Shown piece by piece: positions 16,926 through 39,576 of a stretch of 64,000 bases of DNA. The stretch comes from Pyrinomonadaceae bacterium (lineage in GTDB: Bacteria > Acidobacteriota > Blastocatellia > Pyrinomonadales > Pyrinomonadaceae): the NCBI GenBank assembly GCA_036389235.1, contig DASVQJ010000223.1, positions 8,333 through 72,332 on the forward strand, given 5' to 3'. The number at the start of each line of letters is the position of its first letter. Within the stretch, counting starts at the first letter, position 1. A model generated the notes under the pieces. It was given only the letters and a program-made list of their open reading frames with translations, searched no databases and had not been told where the DNA came from. Both the position numbers and the translations under genes were made by a program.

Positions 16926-19730
16926 ATGTCCGGGAGTTCTTCCACATCGAACTTCGGCGAGTACCCGCTCGTCGTCCTCGCCACGGCGTTCGCGTCGGGC
17001 GTGCTGCTCGCGCGCTTCACCTCCGCCCCTCCTTCCGCCTGCGTCGCACTCGCCGCGCTGACTTCCGCGTTAGCATTCTTCGTCTTTCTTAAGAGAAGAG
17101 AGGCGGCCGCCGCGCGTCTCGTCGTGCTCGCCTTCGCCTGCGCGGGCGCCGCGCTATCGTCCATCGAAGCAAAAGGAGCGGGAGGCGAGTCGCGGCTGCG
17201 CGGCCTCTACGAGGGCGGACGAATCGCATCCGGCGAGCCGGTCGAGCTGACCTGCGTGCTGGAGCGCGCGCCCGAGATCGCGCCCGACGGCCTGCTGCTC
17301 TCGCTGCGCGTCGAGTCGGTGCGGCACAGGTCCGTCGAGACTTCGTGCGGCGGGCGCGTCGAGCTGTTCGCGCCCGTGTCCGACGCGCGCGCCGGGGCCG
17401 CATACGAGTCGCTTGAGCTGAGGCGCGGCGCGCGCGTGCGCGTGGCCGCGGCGCTCACGCGCGCGGAGAGGTATCGCAACCCGGGCGTAAGGCCCTTCGG
17501 CGACTACCTCGACGCGCGCGACGTGGACGCGCGCGGGACGCTCAAGAGCGCGCTCCTCGTCGAACGCCTCGACGACGAGGCCGTCCCGCTCCCGCTCGCG
17601 CTGCTCGACGGCTGGCGCGGGGCGCTCGTCAGACGTGCCGACGCCTCCTTCTCGACGGACGCCGCGGGCGTCTTCAAGGCCGCCGTGCTCGGCAACCGCT
17701 TCGGACTCTCGCGCGCCGCGGCCGAGCGCTTCCGCGAAGGCGGCACCATCCACGCGCTCGTCATCAGCGGCCTCCACATCGCCTTCGTCGGCGGGCTCGT
17801 GTGGGCCTTGGCCCGCAGGCTCACGCGCCGGCCCGCGGCGCGCTGGGCCGCTTCGGCCGCGTGCGTGTGGGCTTACACGCTCGGCGTCGGGGCCGAGCCT
17901 TCGGTCGTGCGCGCGGCGCTCACCTTCACTCTGGCGGCGCTCGCGCCGGCGCTCGGACGGCGCTCGGGCGCGCTCAACGCGACGGGCGGGGCCGCGCTCG
18001 CGCTGCTCGTCTGGCGACCCGCGACGCTCTACGACCCCTCGTTCCAACTGACGTTCCTCTCCGTGCTCTCCGTGCTGGCCTTCGCGCTGCCCCTCGTCTC
18101 GAACCTCAAGGCCGTAGGCCGTTGGCGGCCGGCGCGCGCGACGCCCTACCCGCCCGCGTGCCCGCGCTGGTTCCGCGCCCTGGCCGAGACGCTCTACTGG
18201 CGCGAGCGCGCCTGGCGGCGCGAGATGGAGCGCGCCTCTCACAGCTACGGGCTGTTCAAGACGCCGTGGGCTTCGCGCCTCGAACGCCTGCGCTTGCAGC
18301 CCCCGCTGCGCTTCGCCTTCGCCGCGCTGTCGATGACGACCGCCGTGCAGCTCGTCCTCCTCCCGCCGCAGGTCGTCTACTTCCACCGCCTCCCGCTCGC
18401 CTCGCCCGTGCTCAACCTCTTCGCGGGCGCGCTCCTCGTCGCGCAAGCCTTCGCCGCGCTCGCCTCGATGGCGGTCGGCGAGGTGAGCACGACGCTCGCC
18501 GCGCCGCTCGTACGACTGACCGAAGCTTCGACATACCTCCTCGTCCACGGCGTCGACCCCTTCGCGCGCGCGGGCGTCGCCAGCCTCCGCCTCCCCGCAT
18601 ACGCGGGCGCGGCTTCCGCCCTCTACGCGCTGCACTACGCGCCGCTACCCCTGCTCGCGCGCGCTCTCCTCCGCTGGCGCCCGCTGGCCGAGCCGCCGCG
18701 CGCAGGAAGGTTCGAGGAGGACACAAGCGGGATGAGGGTTGACGAAGGCCACGTCTTTAAGAGTCGCGCCGCGGCGCGGGGCGGGCGTCTGTTGAAGGCC
18801 GCGGGTTGGATGTCTGTCACGACCGCCTTCGCCATCGTCGCACACCCCTTCAGCGCGCCGCGCCCCGACGGCCGACTGCGCGTGGACTTCATCGACGTGG
18901 GGCAGGGCGACGCGGCGCTCGTCACCATGCCCGACGGCTCGACTTTGCTCGTGGACGGCGGCGGCCGTCCCGGCTTCCGCGCCGCGCGGCGTCATGAAGA
19001 CGAGGCGGAGGAGTTCGAGCCCGACTCCCGCGGCGTCGGCGAAGCGGCCGTCGCCGAGTACCTCTGGTGGAGGGGCTTGTCCCGCCTCGACTACGTGCTG
19101 GCGACGCACGCCGACGCCGACCACATCGACGGCCTGAACGACATCCTCAAGAGCTTCGGCGCGCGCGCCGCCCTCGTCGGCCGCGCCCCTTCCGAAGACG
19201 AGGAGTTCGCACGATTCTCCCTGACCGCGAACGAAGCGGGCGTGCCCGTCTACGCCGTCGCGCGCGGCGACCGCCTGCGCTTCGGCGCGGTCGAAGTGGA
19301 CGTGCTCTGGCCGCCGCCGGTCGAAACCTTCGCGGGGGAAGAGGGCACGCGCCGCGCGGCCCCCGCGAACGACGACTCGGTCGTGCTGCGCCTGCGCTAC
19401 GGGCGCCGGACGTTCCTGCTCACCGGCGACATCGAGTCGCGCGCGGAGCGCGCCCTCCTGGCCGCGGGCGACGGCCTCCGCTCCGACGCGCTCAAAGTCT
19501 CACACCACGGCAGCCGCACCTCCTCGACCGACGGCTTCGTCAACGCGACCCGTCCGTCGTTCGCCGTCGTCTCCGTCGGCCGCGACTCGCCCTACGGCCA
19601 CCCGCACGCGGAAGTCCTCGCGCGCTGGCAAGCCGCGGGCGCGCAAGTCCTGACCACGGCCGAGCGCGGCATGGTCACCGTCTCGACTGACGGGGAAGAC
19701 TTGAGGGTCGAAACATTCGTCCGGTGGTAG
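16926..19730 (+). CDS. comEC: DNA internalisation competence protein ComEC/Rec2 with a C-terminal metallo-beta-lactamase domain
   Basis: Multi-TM N-terminal and central region, ComEC core (IHALVISGLHIAFVGG), and MBL motifs VDFIDVGQGDAALV, THADADHIDG and KVSHHGS. Confidence 0.85.
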   Translation: MSGSSSTSNFGEYPLVVLATAFASGVLLARFTSAPPSACVALAALTSALAFFVFLKRREAAAARLVVLAFACAGAALSSIEAKGAGGESRLRGLYEGGRIASGEPVELTCVLERAPEIAPDGLLLSLRVESVRHRSVETSCGGRVELFAPVSDARAGAAYESLELRRGARVRVAAALTRAERYRNPGVRPFGDYLDARDVDARGTLKSALLVERLDDEAVPLPLALLDGWRGALVRRADASFSTDAAGVFKAAVLGNRFGLSRAAAERFREGGTIHALVISGLHIAFVGGLVWALARRLTRRPAARWAASAACVWAYTLGVGAEPSVVRAALTFTLAALAPALGRRSGALNATGGAALALLVWRPATLYDPSFQLTFLSVLSVLAFALPLVSNLKAVGRWRPARATPYPPACPRWFRALAETLYWRERAWRREMERASHSYGLFKTPWASRLERLRLQPPLRFAFAALSMTTAVQLVLLPPQVVYFHRLPLASPVLNLFAGALLVAQAFAALASMAVGEVSTTLAAPLVRLTEASTYLLVHGVDPFARAGVASLRLPAYAGAASALYALHYAPLPLLARALLRWRPLAEPPRAGRFEEDTSGMRVDEGHVFKSRAAARGGRLLKAAGWMSVTTAFAIVAHPFSAPRPDGRLRVDFIDVGQGDAALVTMPDGSTLLVDGGGRPGFRAARRHEDEAEEFEPDSRGVGEAAVAEYLWWRGLSRLDYVLATHADADHIDGLNDILKSFGARAALVGRAPSEDEEFARFSLTANEAGVPVYAVARGDRLRFGAVEVDVLWPPPVETFAGEEGTRRAAPANDDSVVLRLRYGRRTFLLTGDIESRAERALLAAGDGLRSDALKVSHHGSRTSSTDGFVNATRPSFAVVSVGRDSPYGHPHAEVLARWQAAGAQVLTTAERGMVTVSTDGEDLRVETFVRW
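19516..19730 (+). repeat. comEC 3'-end repeat, copy 1 (in frame with the full gene)
   Basis: 215 bp repeated at 22392-22606 and 25162-25376. The first 56 bp are identical in all three copies. Confidence 0.9.
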
Positions 19731-19807
19731 TGTCGCCAAGGCGGTCGGGTGAAAATTTCATGTTTAGACCAAGCGAAAATGGGGCAACACAATATTGCGA
19801 AATTTCG

Positions 19808-19837
19808 TTGACGGCAGATGTATGCTGAGCGTATAAC
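19808..19837 (+). promoter_or_regulatory. Candidate sigma70-like promoter at the left end of islet A
   Basis: TTGACG, 18-nt spacer, TATAAC. Confidence 0.3.
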
Positions 19838-20015
19838 CTGATTGTTTGATGAAAGCGGACTTGCCTTAAGAGCTATTGACGATCCCCTCATATCTGTCAA
19901 CTGCGTGCAGATTGATGCGATCTTCCTAAATATAATTCCCTTACTTCCTGTACTTAAATTAACTCCCCCGTCACCTCCTATGGTGAGTGTTAGCAATTCC
20001 CCTCGGTTACCGACG

Positions 20016-20576
20016 ATGAGGGAGAAGACCAACGGTCTAAAACGTCAAGCGATGACGAACATCGGTAAGAAGTTAGAGGTGCTCGCCAATCTGGCGATTA
20101 TTATCGCCGGCTCCTTGTTAGCCGGTGTCTTGGTTAAAAACCATTTATTTCAAGGGCCGAGCGAGGGGCCAGTCCGGACACAAAGCAGCCCACAACCTAT
20201 GGAGGGGACGAGACTGACTTTAACCAATGTAGATTGGACGCAGAGTAAGCAGACGCTTTTACTGGCTTTGTCCAGCAGTTGCTATTATTGCACTGAGAGC
20301 GCCCCTTTTTACAAAAGACTCGGCCAGAGCAAAAAGGGAACCCGGCTGGTGGTCGTCCTGCCTGAGTCAGTCGAAGACGGGCAGAGCTACTTGAAAAGGC
20401 TCGGGCTCTCTGTGGACGAAGTAAGGCAGTTGAGCCTGGACAAAATTGACGTACAGGTGACGCCGACTTTGTTACTAGTAGATAACTCCGGCGTGGTTAA
20501 GAAATCGTGGTTAGGAAAATTGCCACCGGAACAAGAGGAGTCAGTAGTGAGCACTTTGCTTGATGACGGAGAGTAG
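20016..20576 (+). CDS. Membrane-anchored thioredoxin-fold (TlpA/ResA-like) protein with a CYYC motif
   Basis: N-terminal TM LANLAIIIAGSLLAGVLV. Redoxin-like LLLALSSSCYYCTESAPFY...TPTLLLVDNSGVV. The start is ambiguous (20016 or 20052). Confidence 0.55.
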   Translation: MREKTNGLKRQAMTNIGKKLEVLANLAIIIAGSLLAGVLVKNHLFQGPSEGPVRTQSSPQPMEGTRLTLTNVDWTQSKQTLLLALSSSCYYCTESAPFYKRLGQSKKGTRLVVVLPESVEDGQSYLKRLGLSVDEVRQLSLDKIDVQVTPTLLLVDNSGVVKKSWLGKLPPEQEESVVSTLLDDGE

Positions 20577-20628
20577 TGAAGCCCCGATGTGTAGGACTAC
20601 GGCACGGCAAGTGCCGAGGAGGTGATCC

Positions 20629-21393
20629 ATGAGTCGCGAGGTTAAGTATAAACTTCTAGGAAAAATTTTGGTGTTGGCTGTACTTTCCTTTGGCCTGTGG
20701 GAGTTTTCCGGCGGTGCAGGACTGTCCCAACGTGGGAACGCGTTTGTTCCAGTTACCCCCCAACAGCTACACGTAGATAACGGCCCCCTGCCCGTCGAGT
20801 TACGGTGTTCGTCCGGCCAAAGTAGTGCCCCTAGTGTCTTGGACCCGTTTACTTGCGTCTTGCTGAACAACACGGATAAAGACATCATCGCCGCCAGCGT
20901 AATTTATTCAATCGTCATTGATCAGAATGGTACTGAATCGAAAGCGACATACGCTTCTACCATAGACACAATTCCTCATCCCGACTTCGCGCCCACGAGT
21001 AGACCTATCCGGCCCGGGACGGAGAGCGGAGGTGTGGGGCCGCCGGGACCCACATCTTATCAAGGCGCGATTATCAAAGGTGTCGAGATCAGCGTTGACT
21101 ACGTGGAGTTCGCGGACGGGAGCCGGCTGGGGCCTGACCAGCAGGGGTCTAGGATAATTGGGGACATGCGTAGAGGGGCCGACAGGTATAAGAACTGGCT
21201 CCGCGAGGAGTACGGTAAGAGCGGACAGCAGCCTGACGCGATAACCCAAATGTTAAATAGTCGAGCCCTTCCGAGCGAGCTTAAATTCGCGAGTGCGGAC
21301 GAGGAGCAGGGGGCTCGGGCGTACCGTAACCGCCTCAGAAGGCTGTCTGAAAGCAAGGGCGAGGCGGAAGTAAGAACTCTTCTGCGGAAGTAA
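20629..21393 (+). CDS. Membrane-anchored hypothetical protein (distant paralogue of 22837..23592)
   Basis: N-terminal TM ILVLAVLSFGLW. Shares three collinear motifs with the islet-B protein: CVLLNN/YVIHNN, PIRPGT/AIPPGT, and VDYVEFADGSRLGP/LDAVMLADDGKIYGP. Confidence 0.5.
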   Translation: MSREVKYKLLGKILVLAVLSFGLWEFSGGAGLSQRGNAFVPVTPQQLHVDNGPLPVELRCSSGQSSAPSVLDPFTCVLLNNTDKDIIAASVIYSIVIDQNGTESKATYASTIDTIPHPDFAPTSRPIRPGTESGGVGPPGPTSYQGAIIKGVEISVDYVEFADGSRLGPDQQGSRIIGDMRRGADRYKNWLREEYGKSGQQPDAITQMLNSRALPSELKFASADEEQGARAYRNRLRRLSESKGEAEVRTLLRK

Positions 21394-21404
21394 GAACCTT
21401 CTAA

Positions 21405-22202
21405 AGCTCGGTCAATATTAGAAGATCGCGTCTGATCGGCTATTCATGGGACTCAACAAGTAACAGTTGCGTCAACCCGGATTCCTGTTCAAGTGGCGGC
21501 GGGACTTGGAATTTCGCGAGTAATACATGTTCCAGTGTGCCGACTCCGACGCCTACTCCGACCCCGCCTTCCGGCCACAGTTGTACCAACAAGTGGATGG
21601 AGGCGAAGTGTCTGGCCCTCGGCGAGGGCTGGGACGACATCAGGTGCCGCTGCGCCCCCGAGTCGCCCGTCCTCGTGGACGTGGCGGGCGACGGCTTCGC
21701 GCTGACGGACGCCAACGGCGGCGTCCTCTTCGACCTCAACGCGGACGGCGCACCCGAGCGCCTGGCGTGGACGAGCGCGGATGCGGACGACGCGTGGCTC
21801 GCGCTCGACCGCGACGGTAACGGGATCATAGATAACGGCGGCGAGTTGTTCGGCAACTTCGCGCCGCAGCCGCCGTCCGAGGAGCCGAACGGCTTCCGCG
21901 CCCTCGCCGAGTTCGACCGGCCGGAGAGGGGCGGCAACGCGGACGGGGTGCTCGACGGCCGCGACGCGGTCTTCTACTCCTTACGCCTGTGGCAGGACGC
22001 GAACCACGACGGCGCCTCGGAGCCCGGCGAGCTGCACGCGCTGCCGGAGCTCGGGGTCGCATCTTTAGACCTTCAGTACAAGGAGTCGAAGCGCACCGAC
22101 CGATACGGCAACCGGTTCCGCTACCGGGCAAAGGTGAGAGACCTACACGGCGCGCAGGTAGGCCGCTGGGCGTGGGACGTGTTCCTCGTCTCGGGGCAGT
22201 AA
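21405..22202 (+). pseudogene. 5'-truncated paralogue of the Cys-rich EF-hand-like Ca-binding secreted protein
   Basis: The frame is open from 21405 and encodes plausible Cys-rich sequence ([25 protein letters not shown]), but the first canonical start is GTG 21537. No signal peptide. The C-terminal 200 aa look about 75% identical by eye to 24330-24972. Confidence 0.5.
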
Positions 22203-22220
22203 TCGAACTCGCTCAGTAGA

Positions 22221-22264
22221 GCGACGGGCCGGCAGCCTCTCACGGTTGCCGGCCCGTCGCTTTG
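22221..22264 (+). terminator. Intrinsic terminator after the islet A cargo
   Basis: gcgacgggccggca-loop-tgccggcccgtcgc followed by tttg. An equivalent structure lies at 24991-25033. Confidence 0.65.
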
Positions 22265-22294
22265 CGGCTTCATCCTCGACAGGGAGGGGCTCCT

Positions 22295-22367
22295 GTACTG
22301 AGCAAAATCAAAAATGCTCAGTACGTAAATCGACCTCTAAGTCATACATACACATATGTACTGAGCA
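22295..22367 (+). promoter_or_regulatory. Islet A right arm: three GTACTGAGCA boxes (direct, inverted, direct) plus a TACATA-N4-TATGTA palindrome
   Basis: Boxes at 22295-22304, 22315-22324 (inverted) and 22358-22367. The arrangement is conserved at 25065-25137 with a compensatory change. Confidence 0.6.
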
Positions 22368-22391
22368 AAATTTTCTCCTATAAAAAGGCGA

Positions 22392-22606
22392 GCACCTCCT
22401 CGACCGACGGCTTCGTCAACGCGACCCGTCCGTCGTTCGCCGTCGTCGGCGTCGCACGCGACTCGCCCTACGGCCACCCGCACCCGGGAGTCCTCAAGCG
22501 ATGGCAAGACGCGGGCGCGCGAGTCCTGACCACGGCCGGGCGCGGCATGGTCACCGTCTCAACCGACGGCGAAGACCTGAAGGTGGAGACGTTCGTCCGG
22601 TGGTAG
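22392..22606 (+). pseudogene. comEC 3'-end remnant, copy 2
   Basis: Encodes ...STSSTDGFVNATRPSFAVVGVARDSPYGHPHPGVLKRWQDAGARVLTTAGRGMVTVSTDGEDLKVETFVRW* with no upstream comEC body. Confidence 0.85.
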
Positions 22607-22639
22607 TGTCCCCAAGTCTCCCCGACGGCGAGAATTTCA

Positions 22640-22668
22640 TTGACAATATATTTGCACGGGAGTAGAAA
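22640..22668 (+). promoter_or_regulatory. Candidate sigma70-like promoter at the left end of islet B
   Basis: TTGACA, 17-nt spacer, TAGAAA. Confidence 0.3.
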
Positions 22669-22836
22669 TACGGCGCGCTCACGAAAACTGTTCCGGCTCC
22701 TTCAGCCGTAGCCTTCTCGTAACTGTCACTTCGCTTTCAGTTGCCATTCCAAACAACGTCGTTTGAACAGTAGGCGCACTACCGTTACCTCCATCTGAGT
22801 TCCTCAGTTGCGTCCTGCGGGTTAGGGGAAGAACAA

Positions 22837-23592
22837 ATGTTGAATCTCTCCGGCAGACGACCTCTGTATGCCTTAATCATCGCGCTATTAGCTATGGCCC
22901 TTGGAGTTGGGGGGCGGTCGGTGTACCGCCACGAGAGATCACCCATGCACAGCACATACTTTAAAGACGTCGATCTAACGGTCAGAACGGAGGGCATAGA
23001 GTCCCTGGGTTTAACCATCGAAGTGCCTTACAACCGCCCCGAAAATCTTGGTGATTATGTGATCCACAACAATGGGCCGTACACGGTTAACGGCTTTCGG
23101 GTCGTATTTGAAACCCGTAAGAAGAAAGGTGACAGCCCCGGCCAGAATGGGGAAACGTTTAACCGTATGTCTACGCAAATACCCTCTTGGGTCTATGACA
23201 CAGACCCGGATCCCTGGAAGAAGCAGAAATATCACGAGGCCACGGGAGGGGCCATACCTCCGGGGACGGCGAAGTACTGCGGGCTCGGGCGCAAATCTCA
23301 AATGGTGTCTGAGAACAATCCGCCGCCGATACAAGCAGTTAATGAGAATTTTCCTGATTATAGAGATTACGCGGAAATTATCGTCAGACTGGACGCAGTG
23401 ATGCTGGCTGACGACGGGAAAATTTACGGCCCTAACCGTAAGGTCCTTAGGGGTAAGGGTGCTCACGGAATTTACGCGACTTACGAACAAATAATTGCCG
23501 AACATGTAGCTGACAGTCACTGGTCGAAACCTATGCCAGCCGACTTAAGTGACGGGGAGGATGGAGGGGAACATGAAAAGGGTAAGCCGTAG
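22837..23592 (+). CDS. Membrane-anchored hypothetical protein (paralogue of 20629..21393)
   Basis: N-terminal TM LYALIIALLAMALGV, plus the collinear motifs listed for the islet A protein. Confidence 0.5.
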   Translation: MLNLSGRRPLYALIIALLAMALGVGGRSVYRHERSPMHSTYFKDVDLTVRTEGIESLGLTIEVPYNRPENLGDYVIHNNGPYTVNGFRVVFETRKKKGDSPGQNGETFNRMSTQIPSWVYDTDPDPWKKQKYHEATGGAIPPGTAKYCGLGRKSQMVSENNPPPIQAVNENFPDYRDYAEIIVRLDAVMLADDGKIYGPNRKVLRGKGAHGIYATYEQIIAEHVADSHWSKPMPADLSDGEDGGEHEKGKP

Positions 23593-24972
23593 CGCTAGAG
23601 CCGCAGCCATTCTCTGTTTCAGCCTGACTGCCTTCGTAAGTTTAGGTTGGGTGATGGTTCACGCCACCTCTCCCTGGGTAAGGCCCACTGACCCGGATGT
23701 CCGGCTCAAGCCTTGGAAGTGCAGCCGACGCAGTTCTGATATCCCAAGCTCATGCACAGGAGTATTTCATGGAGAATGTCAACAGCCGAACCCGTTCGGC
23801 ATAAAAAGTCATACGACTGTGGCTATACTGGACATGCAATGTCCTTTCGACCCGACGATAAATGAGATACAGATGGGCAGAGATGCCTACGATCCGGAAG
23901 TTATTAAATGGTGGATGGGGGCGGCAACGCTTCGCACGAGGACACATCCTACCCTAATATACTTTATGATAGGCGCTTCCACGTGGATTGTGACCATGTC
24001 GGTCAGCAGGAAGATTCTTTCCTTGACCCCGCCGATTCCTGTCCCGGCATGGTCGCCAGCACTCCGCCGGTAATTACGACCCAGGAGCCAAATACCTGTG
24101 GACAAGGCTTCGCATCAGTAAACGGGCAGTGCCAGCGGATCCCGCCGGAGAGCTATCCTGCCCCGAGCGAACCTGACGACGCCGATGAGCGTATCGGGCT
24201 TGGGAATACGTGCAATGACGGCATAGACAATGACGAGAATGGGCTGAGTGATGGGACGGACCCTAAGTGTCTAGGCCCAATACCGCCGTACAGTGAGCCT
24301 ACTCCCACCCCGACGCCCGCCCCTACCCCGACCCCGGCGGCCGGCGGCGGCTGCACCAACAAGTGGATGGAGGCGAAGTGCTACGCACTCGGCGAAGGCT
24401 GGGACCCGGTCAGGTGCCGCTGCGCCCCCGAATCGCCCATCCTCGTAGACGTTTCGGGCGACGGCTTCGCGCTCACGGACGCGGCCGGTGGAGTCTTCTT
24501 TGACCTCAACGCGGACGGCGTCATCGAGCGGCTGGCATGGACGGCTGTAGGGTCGGACGACGCATGGCTCGCGCTCGACCGCGACGGCAACGGCACAATA
24601 GATAACGGCCAAGAGCTTTTCGGCAACTTCACCATGCAGCCGCACTCGGCCGCCCCTAACGGCTTCCTCGCGCTGGCTGAGTTCGACCGGCCGGAGCAGG
24701 GTGGGGACGGCGACGGCGTGATAAGCAGCGGGGACGCCGTCTTCTCCCGCCTGCGCCTGTGGCAGGACGTGAATCATAACGGCGTCTCGGAGCCCGAAGA
24801 ACTGCGCACACTGCCGGAACTCGGCCTGAAGACACTAAACCTCGACTACAAGGAGTCGAAGCGCACAGACCGATACGGCAACCGGTTCCGCTACCGCGCG
24901 AAGGTCAAAGATATACACGATGCACAGGTTGGCCGCTGGGCCTGGGACGTGTTCTTCGTCGCGGGGCAGTAA
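23573..24972 (+). pseudogene. Secreted Cys-rich, EF-hand-like Ca-binding protein, apparently split by a 1-nt frameshift in a G5 run
   Basis: ATG 23573 follows ggagggg, with signal peptide MKRVSRSARAAAILCFSLTAFVSLGWVMVHA. Frame 1 turns to junk after ...EVIKWWMG, while frame 2 (from 23908) continues with a plausible protein. The G-run is at 23917-23921. DxDxDG-like loops include [16 protein letters not shown] and DVNHNGVSE. Confidence 0.5.
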
Positions 24973-24990
24973 CCAGATTCGATAAGTAGA

Positions 24991-25033
24991 GCAAAGGGCC
25001 GACAGCCACGGAGGCTGTCGGCCCTTTGCTTTG
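24991..25033 (+). terminator. Intrinsic terminator after the islet B cargo
   Basis: gcaaagggccgacagcc-acgg-aggctgtcggccctttgc followed by tttg. Confidence 0.65.
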
Positions 25034-25064
25034 TAGCCGCATCCTTGACGGGGAGAGGTTCCCT

Positions 25065-25137
25065 GTATTGAGCAGAATCGATTTTGCTCAATACGTAATT
25101 CGGCACTTAAGTCATACATACACATATGTACTGAGCA
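25065..25137 (+). promoter_or_regulatory. Islet B right arm: GTATTGAGCA / TGCTCAATAC / GTACTGAGCA boxes plus a TACATA-N4-TATGTA palindrome
   Basis: Boxes at 25065-25074, 25085-25094 (inverted) and 25128-25137. Confidence 0.6.
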
Positions 25138-25161
25138 AATTTTTGCCCCATAAAACTTCCC

Positions 25162-25376
25162 GCACCTCCTCGACCGACGGCTTCGTCAACGCGACCCGTC
25201 CGTCGTTCGCCGTCGTCGGCGTCGCACGCGACTCGCCCTACGCCCACCCGCACCGGGAAGTCCTCGCGCGCTGGCGCGGCTCCGGCGCGCGAGTCCTGAC
25301 CACGGCCGAGCGCGGGATAATCACCGTCTCCACCGACGGCGAAGACTTGAAGGTCGAGACGTTTGCCGAGCGTTAG
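25162..25376 (+). pseudogene. comEC 3'-end remnant, copy 3 (probably the ancestral chromosomal end)
   Basis: Encodes ...DLKVETFAER*. It is followed directly by GC-rich DNA with no islet left-end sequence. Confidence 0.8.
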
Positions 25377-25749
25377 GGTCGCCGGCCTGAACGCCATGGC
25401 CGCGCGGGCGGGGCGCGGACGTTATGGTCGGGCGTTCGGCCCCGGCGCCGGGCCGGGGCGACCTCACGGGTCGGAACAAATACCCTTGACGAAAAAAATC
25501 GTTGCGTATACATTTCGCGTCACCGAACACGGGAAGGAGTCGCAACCCTGATTCGGTTGGCGAACTCTTCACGAGATTCCGCCGACTTCACCTCCAACAT
25601 CCAATCGCGAAGCGCGCACGGGCGTCGCTGGAAATCATCCCCGCCGTCGCGCGCTGCCGCTAACACCCTGGCTGCCGGTGAACGGGCCGCGCTTCATCAC
25701 GGCCCTCGACCCTCTGAAGGATTCACACACAACCCCTGGAGGAACTCAC

Positions 25750-27945
25750 ATGACGGACGGAAGAGAGAAATCGACGAGAGGCTTGACGAGGCGGCAACTG
25801 CTCAGACTCGGCGCGATGGCGGGCGGGGCCGGGATTCTGTCCTCGGCGGGCTGGCTGACGCTCGCGCACGCGGGCTCGAACCGCCTCTTCAGCAAATTCC
25901 ACCTCAAGGTCACCGCCAGATTCGCCAACGGCTCGCCCGCGGCGAACGTTCACGTAACGGCGCATGAGGTGCTCACCGACAATTATTACGATCTGGGGAA
26001 CACCAATTCGAGCGGGGTCGCGGAGGGCGACCTCCGGGAGAAGCGGCAGGTGCGCGTTGTCGATTTCGGGCGGTGCGACCTCCGGGGCTGCCCCTCACGC
26101 AACGAGGACGACCCGCTCGACCGCCCGAGTTTTATAATCACCTTCTCCGACGCGCAGGCGCATTCGTTCAAAACGCCGCCGTTCCCTTACGGCGAGATAG
26201 GCAACGTGCTCGTCGTCCTGCCGCCTAACTTCACGCCCCGAGTCCCGTCGCCGACGCCCGTCGGGCACATCCTGAGAAGGAAGAACCTGAGCACCGACTT
26301 CACGGTCAACGAGCAGGTGGAGCTGAGCAACCTGATCTACGGCTACCTCAACGACCAGGTGATAGACCAGCACATGAAGCAGGTCGATCACATCGAGGCC
26401 CTCTTCACAGACCACCGCGCGTACCTCTACGAGATGGAGAAGCGGCTCATCAGGGACGGCCACCGGAAGTACGTCCCCCTCCCGATCTGGGAGCCGTTGA
26501 ATAACATCCCGGACGGGTGGGACAAGGTGAAGCCGCTGCGCGGCGTCCCGCATCCCCTGCTGCCCTATAACGCGTCGCCCCTGTCGGCGAGGCCGGAACT
26601 CCCCGACAAGCTCAAGCCCGCCAACATGTGCGGCAGCAACTTCGACACGGCGCAGGACGTGGCGAAGGCCATCGGGCGCTCCGCGTGGTCGGCCGTCGGC
26701 TCTTACCACTTTAACGCCCACGCCGCCCTCGGCGGCCCTTACTGGAAGATGAGCACGGCCGCCTCGTCGGTGCTGTTCTGGGCCTTCCACGCCCTGCTGG
26801 TCGAGGTGTACGACAAGTGGCTGACGTGCAAGTTCCCCGGCACGAGCCTGAAGACCGCGGTCGGCCTCAACGGCGACGGCCGGCTGGAGCTGTTCACGGT
26901 GGCGTCGAACAACAAGCTCTGGCACTCGTGGCAAAGGCTCGACATCGCGCACCGGAGCGAGGCCGACGAAGAACTGGGGAGACACCCGCCCGAGTTCGTG
27001 CACTGGAGCCACTGGGAACAACTGCGGCAGGACAAAGATGTCGTGGACGTAAAGGCCGTCACCGACCACTCCGGCAAACTGGTGCTGCTGGCGAAGGGGA
27101 CGGACAAAAAGCTCTACCTCACCCGGCAGGGCGCGGGGGGTTGGACGGCGTGGGTGGATTTGGGCGCGGAGGTCTCCGACTTCGCCGCGGCGCTCAACGA
27201 AAACAACACCCTGGAAGTGCTCGCCATCAGGCCGAAGGGCGCGGGCCTGACCAACGTCGTCGCCCGGTGCGGCGAGACCGCGCCGCGGAGCAACTCCTTC
27301 GGCAGTTGGTCGGAGATTTCCGCCCTCGATTACTTCCACCGGATAGAGACGGTGAGCCGCCCCGGCGCCCTCCCGCACGCGTTCGTCTCGGGCCGCGTGG
27401 GCGGGCGGTTGTTTCACTTCTGGAAGCGCGCCAACGGCACCTGGGACCCGAGGTATCAAAAACTGTCGGACGATTTTTTCGCGGCCTTCAGGGTGCACGA
27501 GAATCAGGACGGGAGGCTGGAAGTCTTCGCCCTGAAAGACTCCGACGGCCTCATCTACCACAAGTACGTCCTGCCGGGGCGTGCCGCCGTAGACTGGAGG
27601 TCGGCTTCCACCTGGAGCGCCTGGGAAAAACTGGGCTCCGTTAACACGAGGTTCGGCGATCTGGCGGTGGCGAGAAACGGGGACGGCCGGCTGGAGGTGT
27701 TTGCCATCGACTCGGACGGTAAGGTGCGGCACGTCTGGCAGAGGAGTCCAAATCAGGGCTGGGCGGGCAACTGGGAAGAGATACCCCTGTTGAACGTCAT
27801 GGGCAGTCGGACGAGGCGGGTCATGTCGGGCCTGGACTCCACCGGCAAGCTCAAAGTCTTCGTCCACGCCGAGGACAATTTCGCCTACATGGCCGAACAG
27901 GCGGAGCCGAATCAAGGCCCCTGGTTAGGCTGGACAAACATTTAA
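25750..27945 (+). CDS. Tat-signal protein: tyrosinase-like (type-3 copper) domain fused to a 7-bladed lectin-type beta-propeller
   Basis: ggagga precedes ATG 25750. Twin-arginine signal TRRQLLRLGAMAGGAGIL. CuA-like QHMKQVDHIEALFTDHRAYLYEME and CuB-like HFNAHAALGG...FWAFHALLVEVYDKW. Seven repeats of the DGRLEVFA..G.i.H.WQ...W type. Confidence 0.6.
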   Translation: MTDGREKSTRGLTRRQLLRLGAMAGGAGILSSAGWLTLAHAGSNRLFSKFHLKVTARFANGSPAANVHVTAHEVLTDNYYDLGNTNSSGVAEGDLREKRQVRVVDFGRCDLRGCPSRNEDDPLDRPSFIITFSDAQAHSFKTPPFPYGEIGNVLVVLPPNFTPRVPSPTPVGHILRRKNLSTDFTVNEQVELSNLIYGYLNDQVIDQHMKQVDHIEALFTDHRAYLYEMEKRLIRDGHRKYVPLPIWEPLNNIPDGWDKVKPLRGVPHPLLPYNASPLSARPELPDKLKPANMCGSNFDTAQDVAKAIGRSAWSAVGSYHFNAHAALGGPYWKMSTAASSVLFWAFHALLVEVYDKWLTCKFPGTSLKTAVGLNGDGRLELFTVASNNKLWHSWQRLDIAHRSEADEELGRHPPEFVHWSHWEQLRQDKDVVDVKAVTDHSGKLVLLAKGTDKKLYLTRQGAGGWTAWVDLGAEVSDFAAALNENNTLEVLAIRPKGAGLTNVVARCGETAPRSNSFGSWSEISALDYFHRIETVSRPGALPHAFVSGRVGGRLFHFWKRANGTWDPRYQKLSDDFFAAFRVHENQDGRLEVFALKDSDGLIYHKYVLPGRAAVDWRSASTWSAWEKLGSVNTRFGDLAVARNGDGRLEVFAIDSDGKVRHVWQRSPNQGWAGNWEEIPLLNVMGSRTRRVMSGLDSTGKLKVFVHAEDNFAYMAEQAEPNQGPWLGWTNI

Positions 27946-27962
27946 AGCACGGGAGGGCCGGC

Positions 27963-29327
27963 TCAGACGGCCAGGAGGATGCGCAGGTCGCGCACGTTGG
28001 TGCCCGTCGGGCCGGTGCGGACGGCGTCGCCGAGTTGTTCGAAGAGGGTGTGGGCGTCGCTCCCTTCGAGAAACTTCCGGGCGTCGAGTCCCCGTGCGTG
28101 CGCGCGGGCGGCGGTCGTCTCGTCGGCCAGGGCGCCGGCGGCCGGGCTGTTGCCGTCGATGCCGTCCGTCCCGGCGCAGAGCGCGACCGCGTGTGACGGG
28201 ATGAGCCCCGCGCGCGCCCCGCGTTCGGCCGAGACCTTCTCAAGCTCGAACGCGACGCGCAGCGCCGTCTCCGAGTTGCGCCCGCCCGTGCCGCCCCCGC
28301 GCACGGGGCACGAGAACTCGCCGCCCGAGATCAGGCACACGCCGCGCACGCCCGCCGCGCCACCGCGCGCGTAGAGGGTTAAGAGCCTTGAGACGAGTTC
28401 GGCCGCGCCCTCCGCGACGTGCTGCTCGACCAAGTCCCGCGCCAACTCGACGGCGAAGCCCCGGGCGCGCGCGGCCCGCGCGGCGGCCTCGCACGCGCTC
28501 GCGTTGTCGAGCAGAACGTGAAACGTCCTTCGTGCTTCGGGAGGTCGTCGTGCGGGACTCCGCGCGCTCGCCTCTTCGAGGGCGCGGAGGACGTGTGCGG
28601 GAAGTCTCGAAGCCAGCCCGTAGCGCGCGACCGTTTCGGCGACGCCGTGGGCGTCGGGCGGGGCCGCGAGGGTCGGGCCGGAGGCCACGTCGTAGGCGCG
28701 GCCCGTGCTTACGTCGGAGACGACGAGAGTGACCTGCGCCGCGCGCGGCGCGCGCGCGGCGAGGCCGCCGCCCTTCACGGCCGAGAGCGCGCGCCGCACC
28801 GCGTTCACCTCGTCGATGGGTGCGCCGCACGAGACGAGCACGCGGTTCGCCTCGCGCAACTCTTCGAGCGTCAGGCGTCCGTCGCGCGGGAGTTCCATCA
28901 TCGCCGACCCGCCTCCCGAGACGAGGAAGACGACGAGCGCGCCGTGGTCGTCGGCCGCGCGCAGAAGCTCGAACGCCGCGCGCGCGGCCTCCACGCTCTC
29001 CGCGTTCGGCAGAGGGTGCCCGCCCACGTAGACGCGCCAGCGTTCGGAGAGCTTGAAGTCTGAACGAGGGGCCGAGAGCACGCCGCCCGCGAGTGCTTTG
29101 CCGAGCCGCTCGTCGAGCGCCGATGCCATCGCGGCCGCGGCCTTACCCAGGGCGACCGAGTAGACCTTTAACCGGCCGCCGCGCAGTTCGAAACGAGCAT
29201 CGCCGACGCCGAGAGTCGCGCCGTCGAACTCGACCGCGTCGAGCACGGCGCGGCGCGCGTCAACCGCGGCGAGCGCGTCGTCGAAGATTTCGCGCGCGAC
29301 ACTCCGTAGCTCTCTAAGGTCTTTCAA
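27963..29327 (-). CDS. Glycerate 2-kinase / hydroxypyruvate reductase-like (DUF4147 plus MOFRL family)
   Basis: VALGKAAAAMASALDERLG, LISGGEFSCPVRGGGTGGRNSE and GTDGIDGNSPAAGA. Confidence 0.8.
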   Translation of the reverse strand: MKDLRELRSVAREIFDDALAAVDARRAVLDAVEFDGATLGVGDARFELRGGRLKVYSVALGKAAAAMASALDERLGKALAGGVLSAPRSDFKLSERWRVYVGGHPLPNAESVEAARAAFELLRAADDHGALVVFLVSGGGSAMMELPRDGRLTLEELREANRVLVSCGAPIDEVNAVRRALSAVKGGGLAARAPRAAQVTLVVSDVSTGRAYDVASGPTLAAPPDAHGVAETVARYGLASRLPAHVLRALEEASARSPARRPPEARRTFHVLLDNASACEAAARAARARGFAVELARDLVEQHVAEGAAELVSRLLTLYARGGAAGVRGVCLISGGEFSCPVRGGGTGGRNSETALRVAFELEKVSAERGARAGLIPSHAVALCAGTDGIDGNSPAAGALADETTAARAHARGLDARKFLEGSDAHTLFEQLGDAVRTGPTGTNVRDLRILLAV

Positions 29328-38504: not shown

Positions 38505-38771
38505 CAAAGTCACCTTAATCAATGCAAAAGCGAGAGGCCGTCGGCGCTCCCGGTTAAAAACCCACGGCGTCGGCGGCCTCGCTCGAATGCACACCCGAAG
38601 GAGCGTCCCGTAAAACGCCCGCGCTCAACCGTCGGGTCTCGGAAATCGGACGGCACCAATTCTACAGGCAAACGCCTCAACCGCAAAAGCGGGGCGCCCG
38701 TTAAAAACCGGAACGACCCGCCGGGGTTAGACGCGCGGGGCCGTCCGGCGGTTGACCGCCCGCCACCCATT

Positions 38772-39575
38772 TCACGCCCGCGGCAGGGCGCCGTTCCCAC
38801 TAATTTGCGGCAACTCGCACACGAACCGGAGGCCGTCGGCCAGCGTGCGGCGCACCTCGACGCCCGAGAGGTCTGCGCCCACGGCGACGAGCGTCCGCGC
38901 GACGCCCGCGCCGATGCCCGTCAGCACGCACCGGGCGCCCATCAGCCGGACGGCCGCCGCCACTTGCGTCAGGTGTTGGACTACGTCGGCGCCCATCGCG
39001 CGCGCGCCGGTCACGTCGAGGATGACGACGCGCGCGCGGCGCTCGACCACGGCGCGCAGGAGCGCGGCGGTCATCAGGTCGGCGCGCTCGCGGTCGAGGC
39101 TGCCGACGACGGGGCAGAGCAGCACGCCCCCGGCGACGTTGATGAAGGGGGTGGACAGCTCCTCGATCAACTCGTCCTTGAGGCGGTTCGCCTCCTCGGC
39201 CTCGCGCTTCGCGGCGAGCAGCTCGTCCTCGAAGCGCCGGCGCTGGCGCATGGGGACGAAGGCGCAGTCGTTGACGGGCACGTCGCCGCGTTCCCTGCGC
39301 GCCGCGTTGGCGAGCACGGGCACGTCGCCGCCGCCGCGGGCGCGCAGGGAGAGGTAGACCTCCTCGGCCCGGCCGTGCAGTTTGAGCAGGGGGAAGAAGT
39401 GTGTCTGGTAGAAGATGCGCCCGCCGGCCGGGAGCAGCGTCTCGAAGTGCCGCCCCTCCAGCTCGCCCTCCGCGTACCCGAGCCAGCCGAGCAGCGTCGC
39501 GTTGACGGCCAGCACGCGGCCGTCGTCCGCGAGCGAGAGGAAGCCGCACGGGGCTCTGTTCAGCAGCTCGTCCAT
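38772..39575 (-). CDS. PAS - coiled coil - STAS protein (RsbR-type STAS output)
   Basis: PAS: APCGFLSLADDGRVLAVNATLLGWLGY. STAS: LSTPFINVAGGVLLCPVVGSLDRERA...VVILDVTGARAMGADVVQHL. The start lies 1 nt after the upstream stop. Confidence 0.7.
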   Translation of the reverse strand: MDELLNRAPCGFLSLADDGRVLAVNATLLGWLGYAEGELEGRHFETLLPAGGRIFYQTHFFPLLKLHGRAEEVYLSLRARGGGDVPVLANAARRERGDVPVNDCAFVPMRQRRRFEDELLAAKREAEEANRLKDELIEELSTPFINVAGGVLLCPVVGSLDRERADLMTAALLRAVVERRARVVILDVTGARAMGADVVQHLTQVAAAVRLMGARCVLTGIGAGVARTLVAVGADLSGVEVRRTLADGLRFVCELPQISGNGALPRA

Positions 39576-39576
39576 G

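What the first reader, a model, noticed from the sequence alone, without database searches (positions are those of the whole stretch)
19516..25376. Two tandem low-GC islets without any recombinase, each carrying a replacement 3' end for comEC
Seen in sequence:
- The last 215 bp of comEC occur three times in direct orientation (19516-19730, 22392-22606, 25162-25376). The first 56 bp are identical in all copies, and the rest is mosaic.
- Only copy 1 is fused to the full ORF.
- Copies 1 and 2 end ...ETFVRW*. Each is followed by a related left-end sequence of about 40 bp (gaaaatttcat / gagaatttcat) and a TTGAC(G/A) box.
- Copy 3 ends ...ETFAER* and runs into GC-rich, host-like DNA.
- Copies 2 and 3, but not 1, are preceded by a conserved arm of about 130 bp.
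- The 2.66-kb and 2.56-kb intervals look like roughly 47-55% GC and carry paralogous cargo.

Inference: this is the attL / hybrid att / attR pattern expected after two successive insertions of related circular elements recombining within the 56-bp block. Each insertion donated a new comEC end, and copy 3 is the ancestral end. Neither unit encodes a recombinase. They would therefore be mobilised in trans (CIME-like, or IMEX-like use of host recombinases) or inserted by Campbell-type homologous recombination.
Basis: partly seen in the sequence, partly recalled or inferred. Interest (0 to 1): 0.72.

Follow-up and report, generated by a model that had tools for sequence, protein, structure and literature searches.

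The report
Recombinase-less gene islets stacked behind comEC
Three small foreign gene islets, none with its own recombination enzyme, sit one after another at the end of the DNA-uptake gene comEC in a soil acidobacterium; each brings its own replacement end for comEC, and the same kind of array, in other copy numbers or absent, is found in related genomes.

Summary
The last 215 bp of comEC occur three times in direct orientation. The first 56 bp are identical in all copies, and copies 2 and 3 are preceded by a conserved arm. Two assemblies carry the same structure.

The window comes from a Pyrinomonadaceae genome (Acidobacteriota). At least 10 related genomes have the same arrangement: comEC, then 1-3 low-GC islets, then MOFRL(-) and comEA(-). 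Two close relatives have the empty site, so the islets are insertions. No recombinase is encoded in any of at least 16 islets.

Each islet has:
- its own comEC 3' end plus a short left-end motif;
- a gene for a FrpC-type self-processing-module (SPM) secreted protein, usually with partner genes;
- a 94-nt non-coding arm carrying three 14-mer sites. This arm was found only at this locus.

- Copy 3 is not the ancestral end. It heads a third inserted segment (25377-27957).
- The 56-bp block is not a universal core. Within each genome the copies are homogenised from the arm junction over a variable distance.

Best reading: these are non-autonomous integrative islets (CIME/IMEX-like). Recombination starts at the arm|GCACC junction through a factor acting in trans and is resolved by homology. 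Pure RecA-dependent recombination is the main rival. I rate it a new variant of a known kind.

The parts
16926..19730 (+). Full-length comEC (934 aa), the target gene.
   Evidence: Pfam DUF4131, Competence and Lactamase_B. Conserved synteny in all related loci.
19516..19730 (+). Copy 1 of the comEC 3' end, fused to the gene. The 5' part is host-type. The 3' part with ETFVRW* is the replacement end brought by islet 1.
19731..22391 (+). Islet 1 (type A), GC 0.562. It starts with the left-end motif TGTCGCCAAG at 19731-19740, then AAAATTTCAT and a TTGACG box.
   Evidence: Absent from the empty-site relatives L021 and L022.
20016..20576 (+). Membrane-anchored thioredoxin-like protein with a CYYC motif (186 aa).
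   Evidence: Weak Redoxin, DsbE and TrbB hits on the longer 19842-20576 ORF. Orthologues at 43-44% aa identity in the first islets of L007 and L008.
20629..21393 (+). 254-aa protein with an N-terminal hydrophobic segment. It belongs to a very divergent family of about 250 aa found in most islets.
   Evidence: 19-38% aa identity to L004, L006, L007 and L008 islet proteins. No Pfam, PDB or PHROG hit.
21537..22202 (+). Gene for a FrpC-type self-processing module (SPM, PF26745). It has no obvious signal peptide, so it may be truncated.
   Evidence: PF26745. 77% aa identical to the islet-2 SPM. Fold and sequence match to FrpC SPM.
22292..22391 (+). Right arm of islet 1. Conserved 94-nt core at 22292-22385, then a variable hexamer at 22386-22391. 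Palindrome GTACTGAGCA-N10-TGCTCAGTAC at 22295-22324; third site at 22358-22371.
   Evidence: (I4).
22392..22606 (+). Copy 2 of the comEC 3' end (orphan). The 3' part with ETFVRW* and TGTCCCCAAG belongs to islet 2.
22607..25161 (+). Islet 2 (type C), GC 0.560.
   Evidence: Orthologous to the second islet of L007.
22837..23592 (+). 251-aa protein with an N-terminal hydrophobic segment.
   Evidence: 74-76% aa identical to the L007 251-aa gene. No family hit.
23549..24972 (+). SPM protein gene split into two overlapping ORFs, 23549-24073 and 23908-24972. It reads as signal peptide, Cys-rich region, PT linker and SPM. Probably a pseudogene.
   Evidence: The frame break lies at a different place in the L007 orthologue. 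SPM match to FrpC.
25062..25161 (+). Right arm of islet 2. Core 25062-25155 plus hexamer 25156-25161. Palindrome at 25065-25094; third site at 25128-25141.
25162..25376 (+). Copy 3 of the comEC 3' end. It ends ETFAER* followed by GGTCGCC, an islet-type end and not the ancestral one.
25377..27957 (+). Third inserted segment, GC 0.643. It has a promoter-like site at 25486-25514 and a 755-aa gene at 25678-27945 (weak TAT-signal-like N-terminus, tyrosinase-like region, PLL-type beta-propeller lectin). It has no SPM gene, arm or terminal copy at its right end.
   Evidence: Absent from L021, L022, L003, L009 and L010. Pfam and NCBIfam. Promoter scan.
27963..29327 (-). MOFRL/DUF4147 (glycerate-kinase-like) gene. 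This is the host flank that directly follows comEC in the empty-site alleles.

Best explanation
What it is
The region 19725-27957 is an array of three non-autonomous integrative islets inserted at the 3' end of comEC in a Pyrinomonadaceae chromosome. It belongs to a family found at this one locus in many related genomes.

Structure of a complete islet, left to right
- Its own replacement comEC end: roughly the last 60-160 bp plus the stop codon.
- A 16-nt left-end motif, TGTCGCCAAGCnTTTC.
- A promoter-like AATTTCATTGACA.
- Cargo: sometimes a thioredoxin-like membrane protein; in most islets a fast-evolving protein of about 250 aa; and in nearly all a gene for a protein with a C-terminal FrpC-type self-processing module.
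- A terminator hairpin.
- A 94-nt non-coding arm with three copies of the 14-mer GTAYTGAGCAAAAN, two of them forming a palindrome.
- The arm always abuts comEC sequence at exactly the same nucleotide (|GCACCTCC).

Proposed mechanism (inferred, not shown)
- A factor not encoded in the islets (a site-specific recombinase or nuclease) binds the arm and starts recombination at the arm|GCACC junction of an excised or incoming copy.
- The event is completed by homology inside the 215-bp comEC end. This could be ends-in gap repair, or one strand exchange followed by branch migration.
- That would make every copy host-type from the junction over a variable distance, while the distal part stays linked to the islet on its right.
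- Repeated events stack islets. Unequal crossing-over, deletion and exchange of DNA between relatives then reshuffle the array.

Shown versus inferred
- Shown: the islets are insertions, they are polymorphic, they lack recombinases, each carries its own end, and the arm is conserved and non-coding.
- Inferred: the trans-acting enzyme and the initiation site.
For: 1. Empty sites exist in close relatives. In L022 and L021, comEC ends ..ETFVGP* and MOFRL follows about 40 bp later.

2. The array is polymorphic. There are 1-3 islets of different types in the window, L003, L004, L006, L007, L008, L009, L010, L024 and L025, always between comEC and MOFRL/comEA.

3. There is evidence of horizontal movement.
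- The 258-aa-type islet is 81% nt identical between L004 and L006, whose comEC is only 70% identical. It is first in one array and second in the other.
- The closer pair L004/L010 carry unalignable islets.
- Arrays are 53-61% GC in hosts whose comEC is 71-77% GC.

4. Among at least 16 islets, no called gene has a recombinase domain. The one exception is an IS5-type transposase in L007 (Pfam columns).

5. The arm looks like a constrained cis element.
- The 94-nt core is 87% identical between genomes. The adjoining spacer is 54% and the hexamer 36%.
- It shows no codon periodicity: 14, 15 and 9 variable columns at codon positions 1, 2 and 3.
- The 14-mer occurs only in arms.
- The junction with comEC is at the same nucleotide in every copy.

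6. Homogenisation is polar. Within-genome versus between-genome identity of the copies is 0.968 vs 0.823 for nt 0-90, 0.864 vs 0.792 for nt 90-150, and 0.798 vs 0.792 for nt 150-206. Switch points range from 12 to 146.

7. The 3' parts and post-stop motifs follow the downstream islet type across genomes. For example, L004 copy 1 matches L018 at 99% and L010 copy 1 at 92%.

8. Where host DNA follows the last copy directly (L003, L007, L024), that copy ends in P*, like the empty-site alleles (L008 also; L009 is an exception, ending VRLPEAGRT*). 28 of 54 distinct arm-linked orphan ends in public data are of this type.
Against: - No trans-acting enzyme was identified.
- The arm was found only at comEC arrays, never beside a recombinase or on a phage, plasmid or viral contig. 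A CIME-type helper element therefore has no support.
- Variable switch points are what RecA-mediated recombination or gene conversion gives, not classical conservative site-specific recombination.
- The window and L007 share islet types in the same order. Part of the array may be old and vertically inherited rather than actively mobile.
- Some cargo is decaying: the SPM gene is frameshifted in both the window and L007.
- The constant junction could reflect one ancestral capture event rather than site-specific cutting.
- The arm could instead be a regulatory protein-binding site.
- The within-genome comparison rests on only 16 copy pairs from 6 genomes.
Confidence: 0.5

Rival explanations
1. 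Recombination by host RecA only. An ancestral circular DNA carrying a comEC end integrated once by a Campbell-type single crossover. Since then, the repeated blocks of about 1 kb (SPM domain, arm, comEC end) have served as homology for unequal crossing-over, gene conversion, and exchange of cassettes or whole arrays between relatives after natural transformation. This resembles Neisseria minimal mobile elements. The arm has some other role, such as a regulator binding site.
For: - Switch points between host-type and islet-type sequence vary from 12 to 146.
- The 5' blocks are host-specific.
- There is no recombinase in any islet and no arm beside a recombinase anywhere.
- The two window islets share 1,061 bp at 82% identity, which is ample homology.
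- The locus lies between comEC and comEA, so the host probably takes up DNA (inference).
- Islet order is shared by the window and L007.
Against: - RecA alone does not explain why homogenisation is anchored at the arm junction and fades towards the 3' end. Between-genome identity is nearly flat along the 215 bp, 0.82 to 0.79.
- It does not explain why a 94-nt non-coding arm with three 14-mers is kept at 87% identity while neighbouring non-coding DNA is at 36-54%.
- Arms within a genome are not homogenised (0.851 within vs 0.871 between). General gene conversion across the 1-kb repeat would have homogenised them.
Confidence: 0.3
2. In-situ tandem duplication of a segment (comEC end plus downstream genes) followed by divergence. 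No insertion of foreign DNA and no mobility.
For: - The direct repeats have regular spacing, 2876 and 2770 bp.
- The right-hand 1.06 kb of the two islets is 82% identical.
Against: - Empty-site alleles exist in close relatives.
- The left parts of the islets are unrelated.
- The islets are 15-20 GC points below the host in every genome.
- The same islet type sits at different array positions in distant hosts with higher identity than comEC.
- A simple duplication would not leave an arm-linked host-type copy at the end of arrays, as seen in L003, L007, L009 and L024.
Confidence: 0.04
3. The orphan comEC ends are silent donor cassettes for programmed variation of the ComEC C-terminus. This would resemble pilS/pilE or the orphan modules of polymorphic toxin loci.
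For: - The orphan copies keep an open frame.
- They share an identical 5' block with the expressed gene, the layout used by orphan toxin modules.
Against: - The alternative ends differ by only a few conservative residues over 71 aa and in the last 2-4 residues. No polymorphic domain is exchanged.
- Empty-site genomes lack any donor copy.
- The variable material is the cargo between the copies, not ComEC.
Confidence: 0.04
4. Assembly artefact: a collapsed or chimeric repeat.
For: - Metagenome assemblies often break at this repeat. L011 ends inside the comEC end.
- Many ComEC hits lie on 1-2-kb contigs.
Against: - Two assemblies give the same 22.8 kb with 5 mismatches.
- An NCBI MAG carries both SPM proteins unchanged.
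- The copies differ at 9-13% of positions, so they are separable.
- The same architecture occurs in at least 10 other contigs, including one of 876 kb.
Confidence: 0.01

Closest known systems
CIMEs (cis-mobilisable elements) and accretion arrays of ICEs/IMEs, e.g. the ICESt1/ICESt3 family at the 3' end of fda in Streptococcus thermophilus (from my own knowledge, not checked in a paper here)
   Same: - Elements flanked by att-like direct repeats at the 3' end of a protein gene.
- They lack recombination genes and are stacked in tandem.
- Each insertion restores the target gene's end.
   Different: - No cognate integrase-bearing element sharing the arm was found in any array or collection searched.
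- The repeat is 215 bp, with a variable host/islet switch point instead of a short fixed core.
- The family is confined to one locus in Pyrinomonadaceae.
IMEXs (integrative mobile elements exploiting Xer, e.g. CTXphi, RS1, TLC or the gonococcal genetic island at dif) (own knowledge)
   Same: - No recombinase of their own.
- They use a host enzyme and form tandem arrays.
- One-strand exchange with later processing gives non-classical junctions.
   Different: - The target here is inside the comEC coding sequence, not a 28-bp dif site.
- The arm palindrome (10-14-bp arms with a 2-10-bp centre) is not dif-shaped.
- No link to Xer was shown.
Integron cassette arrays and CALINs (own knowledge)
   Same: - An array of small cassettes, each ending in a conserved, partly palindromic non-coding site.
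- The cassettes carry no recombinase.
- Cassette content differs between relatives.
   Different: - No IntI gene or attI next to the array.
- The repeat unit includes a 215-bp piece of the neighbouring gene.
- Cassettes hold 2-3 genes with their own promoter-like sites.
- The arm has no attC-type R/L box structure.
Minimal mobile elements of Neisseria: hot spots between conserved genes, exchanged by transformation and homologous recombination (own knowledge)
   Same: - Different gene cassettes occupy one site between conserved flanking genes.
- There are no mobility genes.
- The host probably takes up DNA.
   Different: The cassettes here are bounded internally by duplicated target-gene ends and a conserved arm, which minimal mobile elements lack.
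frpD-frpC of Neisseria meningitidis (PMC5233953, PMC7078468), as a comparison for the cargo
   Same: - The last gene of each islet encodes a FrpC-type Ca-binding self-processing module.
- It is preceded by a gene for a protein of about 250 aa. In Neisseria, frpC is preceded by frpD, whose product binds the FrpC N-terminal domain.
   Different: - There are no RTX repeats.
- The module is C-terminal.
- The residue before the invariant Pro is Ser or Thr, not Asp, in 58 of 59 homologues.
- The partner proteins show no detectable similarity to FrpD.

Membership tests
CIME / non-autonomous integrative element | Bounded by direct repeats of the attachment site at the target gene. | tested here: met
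   215-bp comEC-end repeats flank each islet in the window and in 9 other arrays.
CIME / non-autonomous integrative element | No integrase, excisionase or transfer genes inside. | tested here: met
   No hits with Pfam, NCBIfam, PADLOC or PHROGs on the window ORFs. No recombinase in the precomputed Pfam for any array gene, apart from one IS transposase in L007.
CIME / non-autonomous integrative element | A related autonomous element (ICE, IME or prophage) with the same att or arm and a cognate integrase. | tested here: not met
   The arm pattern and the arm-ORF searches found arms only in comEC arrays. Searches covered metagenome contigs, IMG/VR, PLSDB, INPHARED and the 5.8-billion-protein set. 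The pattern scans need exact matches, so divergent arms could be missed.
CIME / non-autonomous integrative element | Excision or integration shown, or empty and filled sites in one population. | tested here: inconclusive
   Empty-site alleles exist in related genomes whose comEC is 85-91% nt identical. They are not the same strain, and circular forms cannot be tested with these tools.
IMEX | Integration at the chromosomal dif site through XerC/XerD. | tested here: not met
   The junction lies inside the comEC coding sequence at |GCACCTCC in every genome. By eye, no 11-6-11 dif-like site was seen in the arm or the junction. Xer dependence itself is not testable here.
Integron / CALIN | attC sites and an adjacent intI with attI. 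| tested here: not met
   No integron integrase flanks the array. The Xer-like gene in L003 and L009 lies beyond comEA, is absent from the window, and scores below all NCBIfam cut-offs. The arm folds as one simple hairpin.
Polymorphic-toxin orphan cassette array | Orphan modules begin with a stub of the main toxin gene, so that its variable C-terminal toxin domain can be swapped. | tested here: not met
   The stub comes from comEC, whose alternative ends differ by only a few residues. The variable parts are separate genes.
ComEC/Rec2 | DUF4131 (OB), Competence and metallo-beta-lactamase domains in one membrane protein. | tested here: met
   PF13567 at 1.9e-15, PF03772 at 1.5e-37 and PF00753 at 1.9e-14.
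FrpC-type self-processing module (PF26745) | SPM fold and sequence. | tested here: met
   AlphaFold2 model with pLDDT 86.5. Foldseek to 6SJW at E 1.5e-16, TM 0.78. phmmer to 6SJW at E 1e-29.
FrpC-type self-processing module (PF26745) | Scissile Asp-Pro bond at the start of the module (PMC7078468). | tested here: not met
   The Pro is invariant, but the preceding residue is Ser in 50, Thr in 8 and Asp in 1 of 59 aligned sequences.

The most novel reading that the evidence does not exclude
The arm plus comEC end is the recombination site of a previously undescribed cassette platform. Mobile cassettes with no enzyme of their own home to the end of the DNA-uptake gene, a target that every transformable cell must carry. 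They would use a chromosomally encoded or competence-linked factor that acts at the arm|GCACC junction, and would then be copied in by homology. This would be an integron-like way of acquiring genes, tied to natural transformation.
Probability: 0.15. Interest if true: 0.85.

Novelty: new variant of a known kind. Interest (0 to 1): 0.62.

Why it matters
- Most genomic islands are recognised through their integrase. Here a whole family spreads and stacks at one gene end without encoding any recombinase, and no helper element is visible. At least 54 distinct arm-linked comEC ends exist in public data, and at least 10 arrays were inspected.
- If a host or competence-linked factor drives the process, this is a new route of gene gain in Acidobacteria, a major and poorly studied soil phylum.
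- If RecA alone drives it, this is a clear natural case of homology-anchored cassette arrays.
- The polar, junction-anchored homogenisation gives a concrete prediction that can be tested.
- The cargo adds a large clade of FrpC-like self-processing modules with Ser/Thr-Pro in place of Asp-Pro. That is relevant to the 'clip-and-link' chemistry used in protein engineering (PMC7846742).

Tried and rejected
- **Known RNA families.** An Rfam scan of 19000-26000 gave only sub-threshold chance hits.
- **Arm as a structured RNA or ssDNA.** RNAalifold finds one hairpin. Only one pair varies (C-G, U-A, U-G, and one C-A), which is too little to decide.
- **Arm as coding sequence fused to the comEC frame.** Rejected: there is no third-position excess of variation.
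- **Arm elsewhere.** Exact-pattern scans of IMG/VR (0 hits) and JGI metagenome contigs (9 hits, 5 true and all next to comEC ends). BLAST against plasmids and phages gave nothing. tblastn-type search of viral contigs gave nothing. The 10-mer is absent outside arms in all 25 loci.
- **GTDB genome scan with ComEC.** Only two relatives were returned, so it did not yield a broad set of named genomes.
- **Xer-like recombinase in L003 and L009.** It lies between comEA and ftsK. It is absent from the window and most arrays, and no arm motif is nearby. Rejected as the driver.
- **Recombinases in window 36-64 kb.** None among the ten large ORFs scanned.
- **Defence-system and phage libraries on the cargo.** Nothing meaningful.
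- **Genome-wide DNA-uptake-sequence idea for the 14-mer.** Rejected, because it is absent from the rest of the 64-kb window.
- **An error of my own.** A first comparison of the thioredoxin-like gene used a wrong start (20017) and gave false negatives. It was redone from 20016.
- **Papers.** Searches for comEC as an island target gave nothing relevant to this family, and PF26745 appears in no paper.

Full report
**1. Checking the observation**

The last 215 bp of the 934-aa comEC ORF (16926-19730) recur at 22392-22606 and 25162-25376 in the same orientation. The ORF matches Pfam DUF4131, Competence and Lactamase_B. Pairwise identities of the copies are 90.7%, 87.0% and 88.8%. The first 56 bp are identical in all three, and homology starts abruptly at GCACCTCC. 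The 56-mer has exactly three hits in the window, against none in 100 shuffles.

Copies 2 and 3 are preceded by an arm that is about 80% identical over about 140 nt. The arm contains the palindrome GTACTGAGCA-N10-TGCTCAGTAC and a third copy of the same motif. Copies 1 and 2 end ETFVRW* and are followed by TGTC(G/C)CCAAG. Copy 3 ends ETFAER*. The two intervals are 56% GC, against 73% for comEC.

The window is identical to JGI 3300034377 contig Ga0334931_000014 (246.7 kb). A second assembly, ENA ERZ27253120, has the same 22.8 kb with 5 mismatches. Both SPM proteins also occur in an NCBI MAG named Pyrinomonadaceae bacterium (taxonomy). The repeat is therefore real and not an assembly artefact.

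**2. The same structure in relatives**

I searched the protein collection with the 114-aa ORF that runs through arm 1 and copy 2. It returned 54 distinct short 'arm plus comEC end' products from many metagenomes and Pyrinomonadaceae MAGs.

Gene neighbourhoods were retrieved for the longer contigs (L003, L004/L005, L006, L007, L008, L009, L024, L025) and for a GTDB genome (L010, an 876-kb contig). All show one synteny: PA/M28 peptidase, comEC, 1-3 low-GC islets, sometimes extra genes, then MOFRL(-), comEA(-) and ftsK(-).

| Locus | Islets |
|---|---|
| Window | 2 plus a third segment |
| L003 | 3 |
| L004 | 1, then a TIR-domain gene |
| L006 | 2, the last with only an arm remnant |
| L007 | 2, then a third unit containing an IS, then a terminal copy |
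| L008, L009, L010, L024 | 1 each |
| L025 | at least 2 |

No gene in any islet has a recombinase domain. The only exception is an IS5-type transposase in L007.

**3. Empty sites**

I searched with the ComEC C-terminal domain and read the C-termini of the hits. This pointed to comEC genes ending in ..P.

Two of these lie on contigs where MOFRL follows about 40 bp after the comEC stop. They are L022 (JGI 3300034006; 90.6% nt identical to the window in comEC and 89% in MOFRL) and L021 (85-86%). A more distant genome, L023, has comEC followed by comEA.

Relative to L022, the window carries about 8.2 kb of extra DNA, 19725-27957. The islets are therefore insertions, and the ancestral end is ..ETFV(G/R/K)P* TGA followed by GAC(G/T)TGAGG.

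**4. Anatomy of an islet**

- **Left end.** After the stop of the preceding copy comes TGTCGCCAAGCnTTTC, present in about 10 of 13 islets. A promoter-like AATTTCATTGACA follows.
- **Cargo.**
  - Type A has a membrane thioredoxin-like protein and a protein of about 250 aa.
  - Another type has a 258-aa protein only.
  - Type C has a 251-aa protein.
  - The proteins of about 250 aa form one very divergent family, 19-38% identical.
- **Constant last gene.** In nearly all islets this encodes a protein with a variable N-terminus and a conserved C-terminal domain of about 200 aa, PF26745 'SPM'.
  - More than 7,800 database proteins share this domain.
  - The AlphaFold2 model has pLDDT 86.5.
  - It matches the self-processing module of Neisseria FrpC: 6SJW, Foldseek E 1.5e-16, TM 0.78, and phmmer E 1e-29.
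  - In FrpC this module performs Ca-dependent Asp-Pro cleavage and protein ligation (PMC7078468). FrpC is also paired with FrpD, a protein that binds its N-terminal domain (PMC5233953).
  - In the present clade the residue before the invariant Pro is Ser or Thr in 58 of 59 sequences.
- **Right end.** After a terminator hairpin comes the arm: a 94-nt core, a variable hexamer, then comEC sequence starting at the same nucleotide in every copy of every genome.

**5. The arm is a constrained non-coding element**

- Between genomes the core is 87% identical. The spacer just upstream is 54% identical and the hexamer 36%.
- Variable columns fall 14, 15 and 9 on codon positions 1, 2 and 3 of the comEC frame, so the arm is not evolving as coding sequence.
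- It holds three copies of GTAYTGAGCAAAAN. The hairpin has one variable pair (C-G, U-A, U-G, and one C-A), which is too little to tell a folded strand from a symmetric protein site.
- The 10-mer occurs nowhere outside arms in the window or in any fetched locus.
- Scans of viral contigs, metagenome contigs, plasmids and phages found arms only beside comEC ends.

**6. The copies are mosaics with a polar pattern**

The first 90 nt of the copies cluster strictly by genome. The last 85 nt cluster across genomes and follow the islet on their right. For example, L004 copy 1, L018 and L010 copy 1 all precede a 258-aa-type islet and are 92-99% alike.

| Segment of the copy | Identity within a genome | Identity between genomes |
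|---|---|---|
| nt 0-90 | 0.968 | 0.823 |
| nt 90-150 | 0.864 | 0.792 |
| nt 150-206 | 0.798 | 0.792 |

The point where a copy stops being identical to its neighbours varies: 12, 37, 56, 92, 117, 129 or 146 nt. Arms within a genome are not homogenised (0.851 within, 0.871 between).

So each islet really does bring its own comEC end. However, the part next to the arm is always rewritten to the host's sequence, starting at the junction.

**7. Evidence for movement**

- The 258-aa-type islet of L004 and L006 is 81% nt identical over 1.6 kb, while their comEC and MOFRL are 70% identical. It is first in one array and second in the other.
- L004 and L010 are closer hosts (comEC 84-85%) but have unalignable islets.
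- Arrays are 53-61% GC in hosts whose comEC is 71-77% GC.
- Against purely recent movement: the window and L007 share type A followed by type C. The thioredoxin-like protein is 43% identical and the 251-aa protein 74-76%.
- The type-C SPM gene is broken by different frameshifts in the two genomes. Part of the array is therefore old and decaying.

**8.

- Copy 3 is not the ancestral end. It has an islet-type terminus and is followed by GGTCGCC, a promoter-like site, and a 755-aa tyrosinase-like/PLL-lectin gene. This segment, 25377-27957 (GC 0.64), is missing from the empty sites and from L003, L009 and L010.
- This third unit has lost, or never had, its SPM gene, arm and the host's original end.
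- The 56-bp block is specific to the window.
- Only the SPM genes of the two islets are paralogous.

**9. Mechanism**

Shown: insertion, polymorphism, absence of recombinase genes, an islet-borne end, a conserved arm and a fixed junction.

Inferred: an event that starts at the arm|GCACC junction and is finished by homology inside the comEC end. Either ends-in gap repair of a molecule cut at the junction, or a single strand exchange followed by branch migration, would explain four things. All copies are host-type next to the arm. The length of that tract varies. The distal part stays with the downstream islet. Arms are not converted.

This needs a factor that recognises the arm. Since no islet encodes one and no helper element was seen, it would be chromosomal, as with IMEX elements.

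The main rival is RecA-only recombination between the repeats, with exchange through natural transformation. It explains the variable switch points and the missing recombinase. It does not explain the polarity or the conservation of the arm. In-situ duplication, programmed ComEC variation and assembly artefact are each contradicted by specific results (see the rival explanations).

**10. Novelty and verdict**

The closest known things are CIME/ICE accretion arrays, IMEXs, integron cassette arrays and Neisseria minimal mobile elements. The defining features of each are only partly met (see the membership table). I found no paper describing this family.

I classify it as a new variant of a known kind: non-autonomous integrative islets. 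Four features are unusual. The target is comEC. The arm is strongly conserved and has no cognate enzyme. Homogenisation is polar. The cargo is SPM proteins.

Interest is 0.62.

Noticed in passing
window 21537-22202 and 24268-24972; alignment A3: The islet SPM domains are clear homologues of the FrpC self-processing module. However, the residue before the invariant Pro is Ser in 50, Thr in 8 and Asp in 1 of 59 sequences. The canonical Asp-Pro anhydride chemistry may not apply. The family has more than 7,800 members, with N-terminal domains that include matrixin and MopE-like domains.
   Followed up: partly
window 23549-24073 / 23908-24972; L007 8617-9959: The type-C SPM gene is split into two overlapping ORFs. 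Relative to L007, the window has one extra G in a G-run (about 23917-23921) and a 1-nt deletion about 30 nt downstream. L007 needs a -1 shift at its G4 run. These look like independent frame disruptions, so probably decay and not programmed frameshifting.
   Followed up: partly
window 25377-27957: A third inserted segment encodes a 755-aa protein with a weak TAT-signal-like N-terminus (sub-threshold), a tyrosinase-like region and a PLL-type beta-propeller lectin domain. Other genomes carry different genes in this same space between the last comEC end and MOFRL: a TIR-domain protein in L004, 124-aa and 665-aa genes in L008, and 388-aa, IS and 555-aa genes in L007.
   Followed up: partly
L003 12411-16396; L009 12284-16305: A block of about 4 kb between comEA and ftsK holds a 280-aa Xer-like tyrosine recombinase (below every NCBIfam cut-off), an SNase-like nuclease and small ORFs. 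It is absent from the window, L004, L006, L007 and L010. No arm motif lies nearby.
   Followed up: partly
L003 9790-10142: The arm before the terminal comEC copy is interrupted by about 212 bp, inserted at the palindrome (arm halves at 9790-9862 and 10075-10142). This could be a small insertion element.
   Followed up: no
L006 12464-12568; L010 15149-15261: Some arrays have degenerate right ends. L006 has an arm remnant with no comEC end. L010 has a partial arm plus only 78 bp of the comEC end directly before MOFRL.
   Followed up: partly
L011 (contig end) and the hits: Many metagenome contigs carrying close ComEC homologues are only 1-5 kb long or stop inside the comEC end. That suggests the repeat often breaks short-read assemblies, so arrays are probably under-counted.
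   Followed up: no
window 49030-55191 (-), 58843-60600 (+): Elsewhere in the window there is a 2,053-aa bacterial alpha-2-macroglobulin and a GmrSD_N plus HNH protein (a type IV restriction-like defence gene). Two very large ORFs, 36762-39632 and 39415-43422, have no Pfam hit.
   Followed up: no
window 22386-22391 and L004 10014-10019: The variable hexamer between arm and comEC end (AGGCGA) is the same in window islet 1 and the L004 islet, and their arms are 88% identical. This hints that the SPM-arm modules have lineages of their own, shared across host genomes.
   Followed up: no
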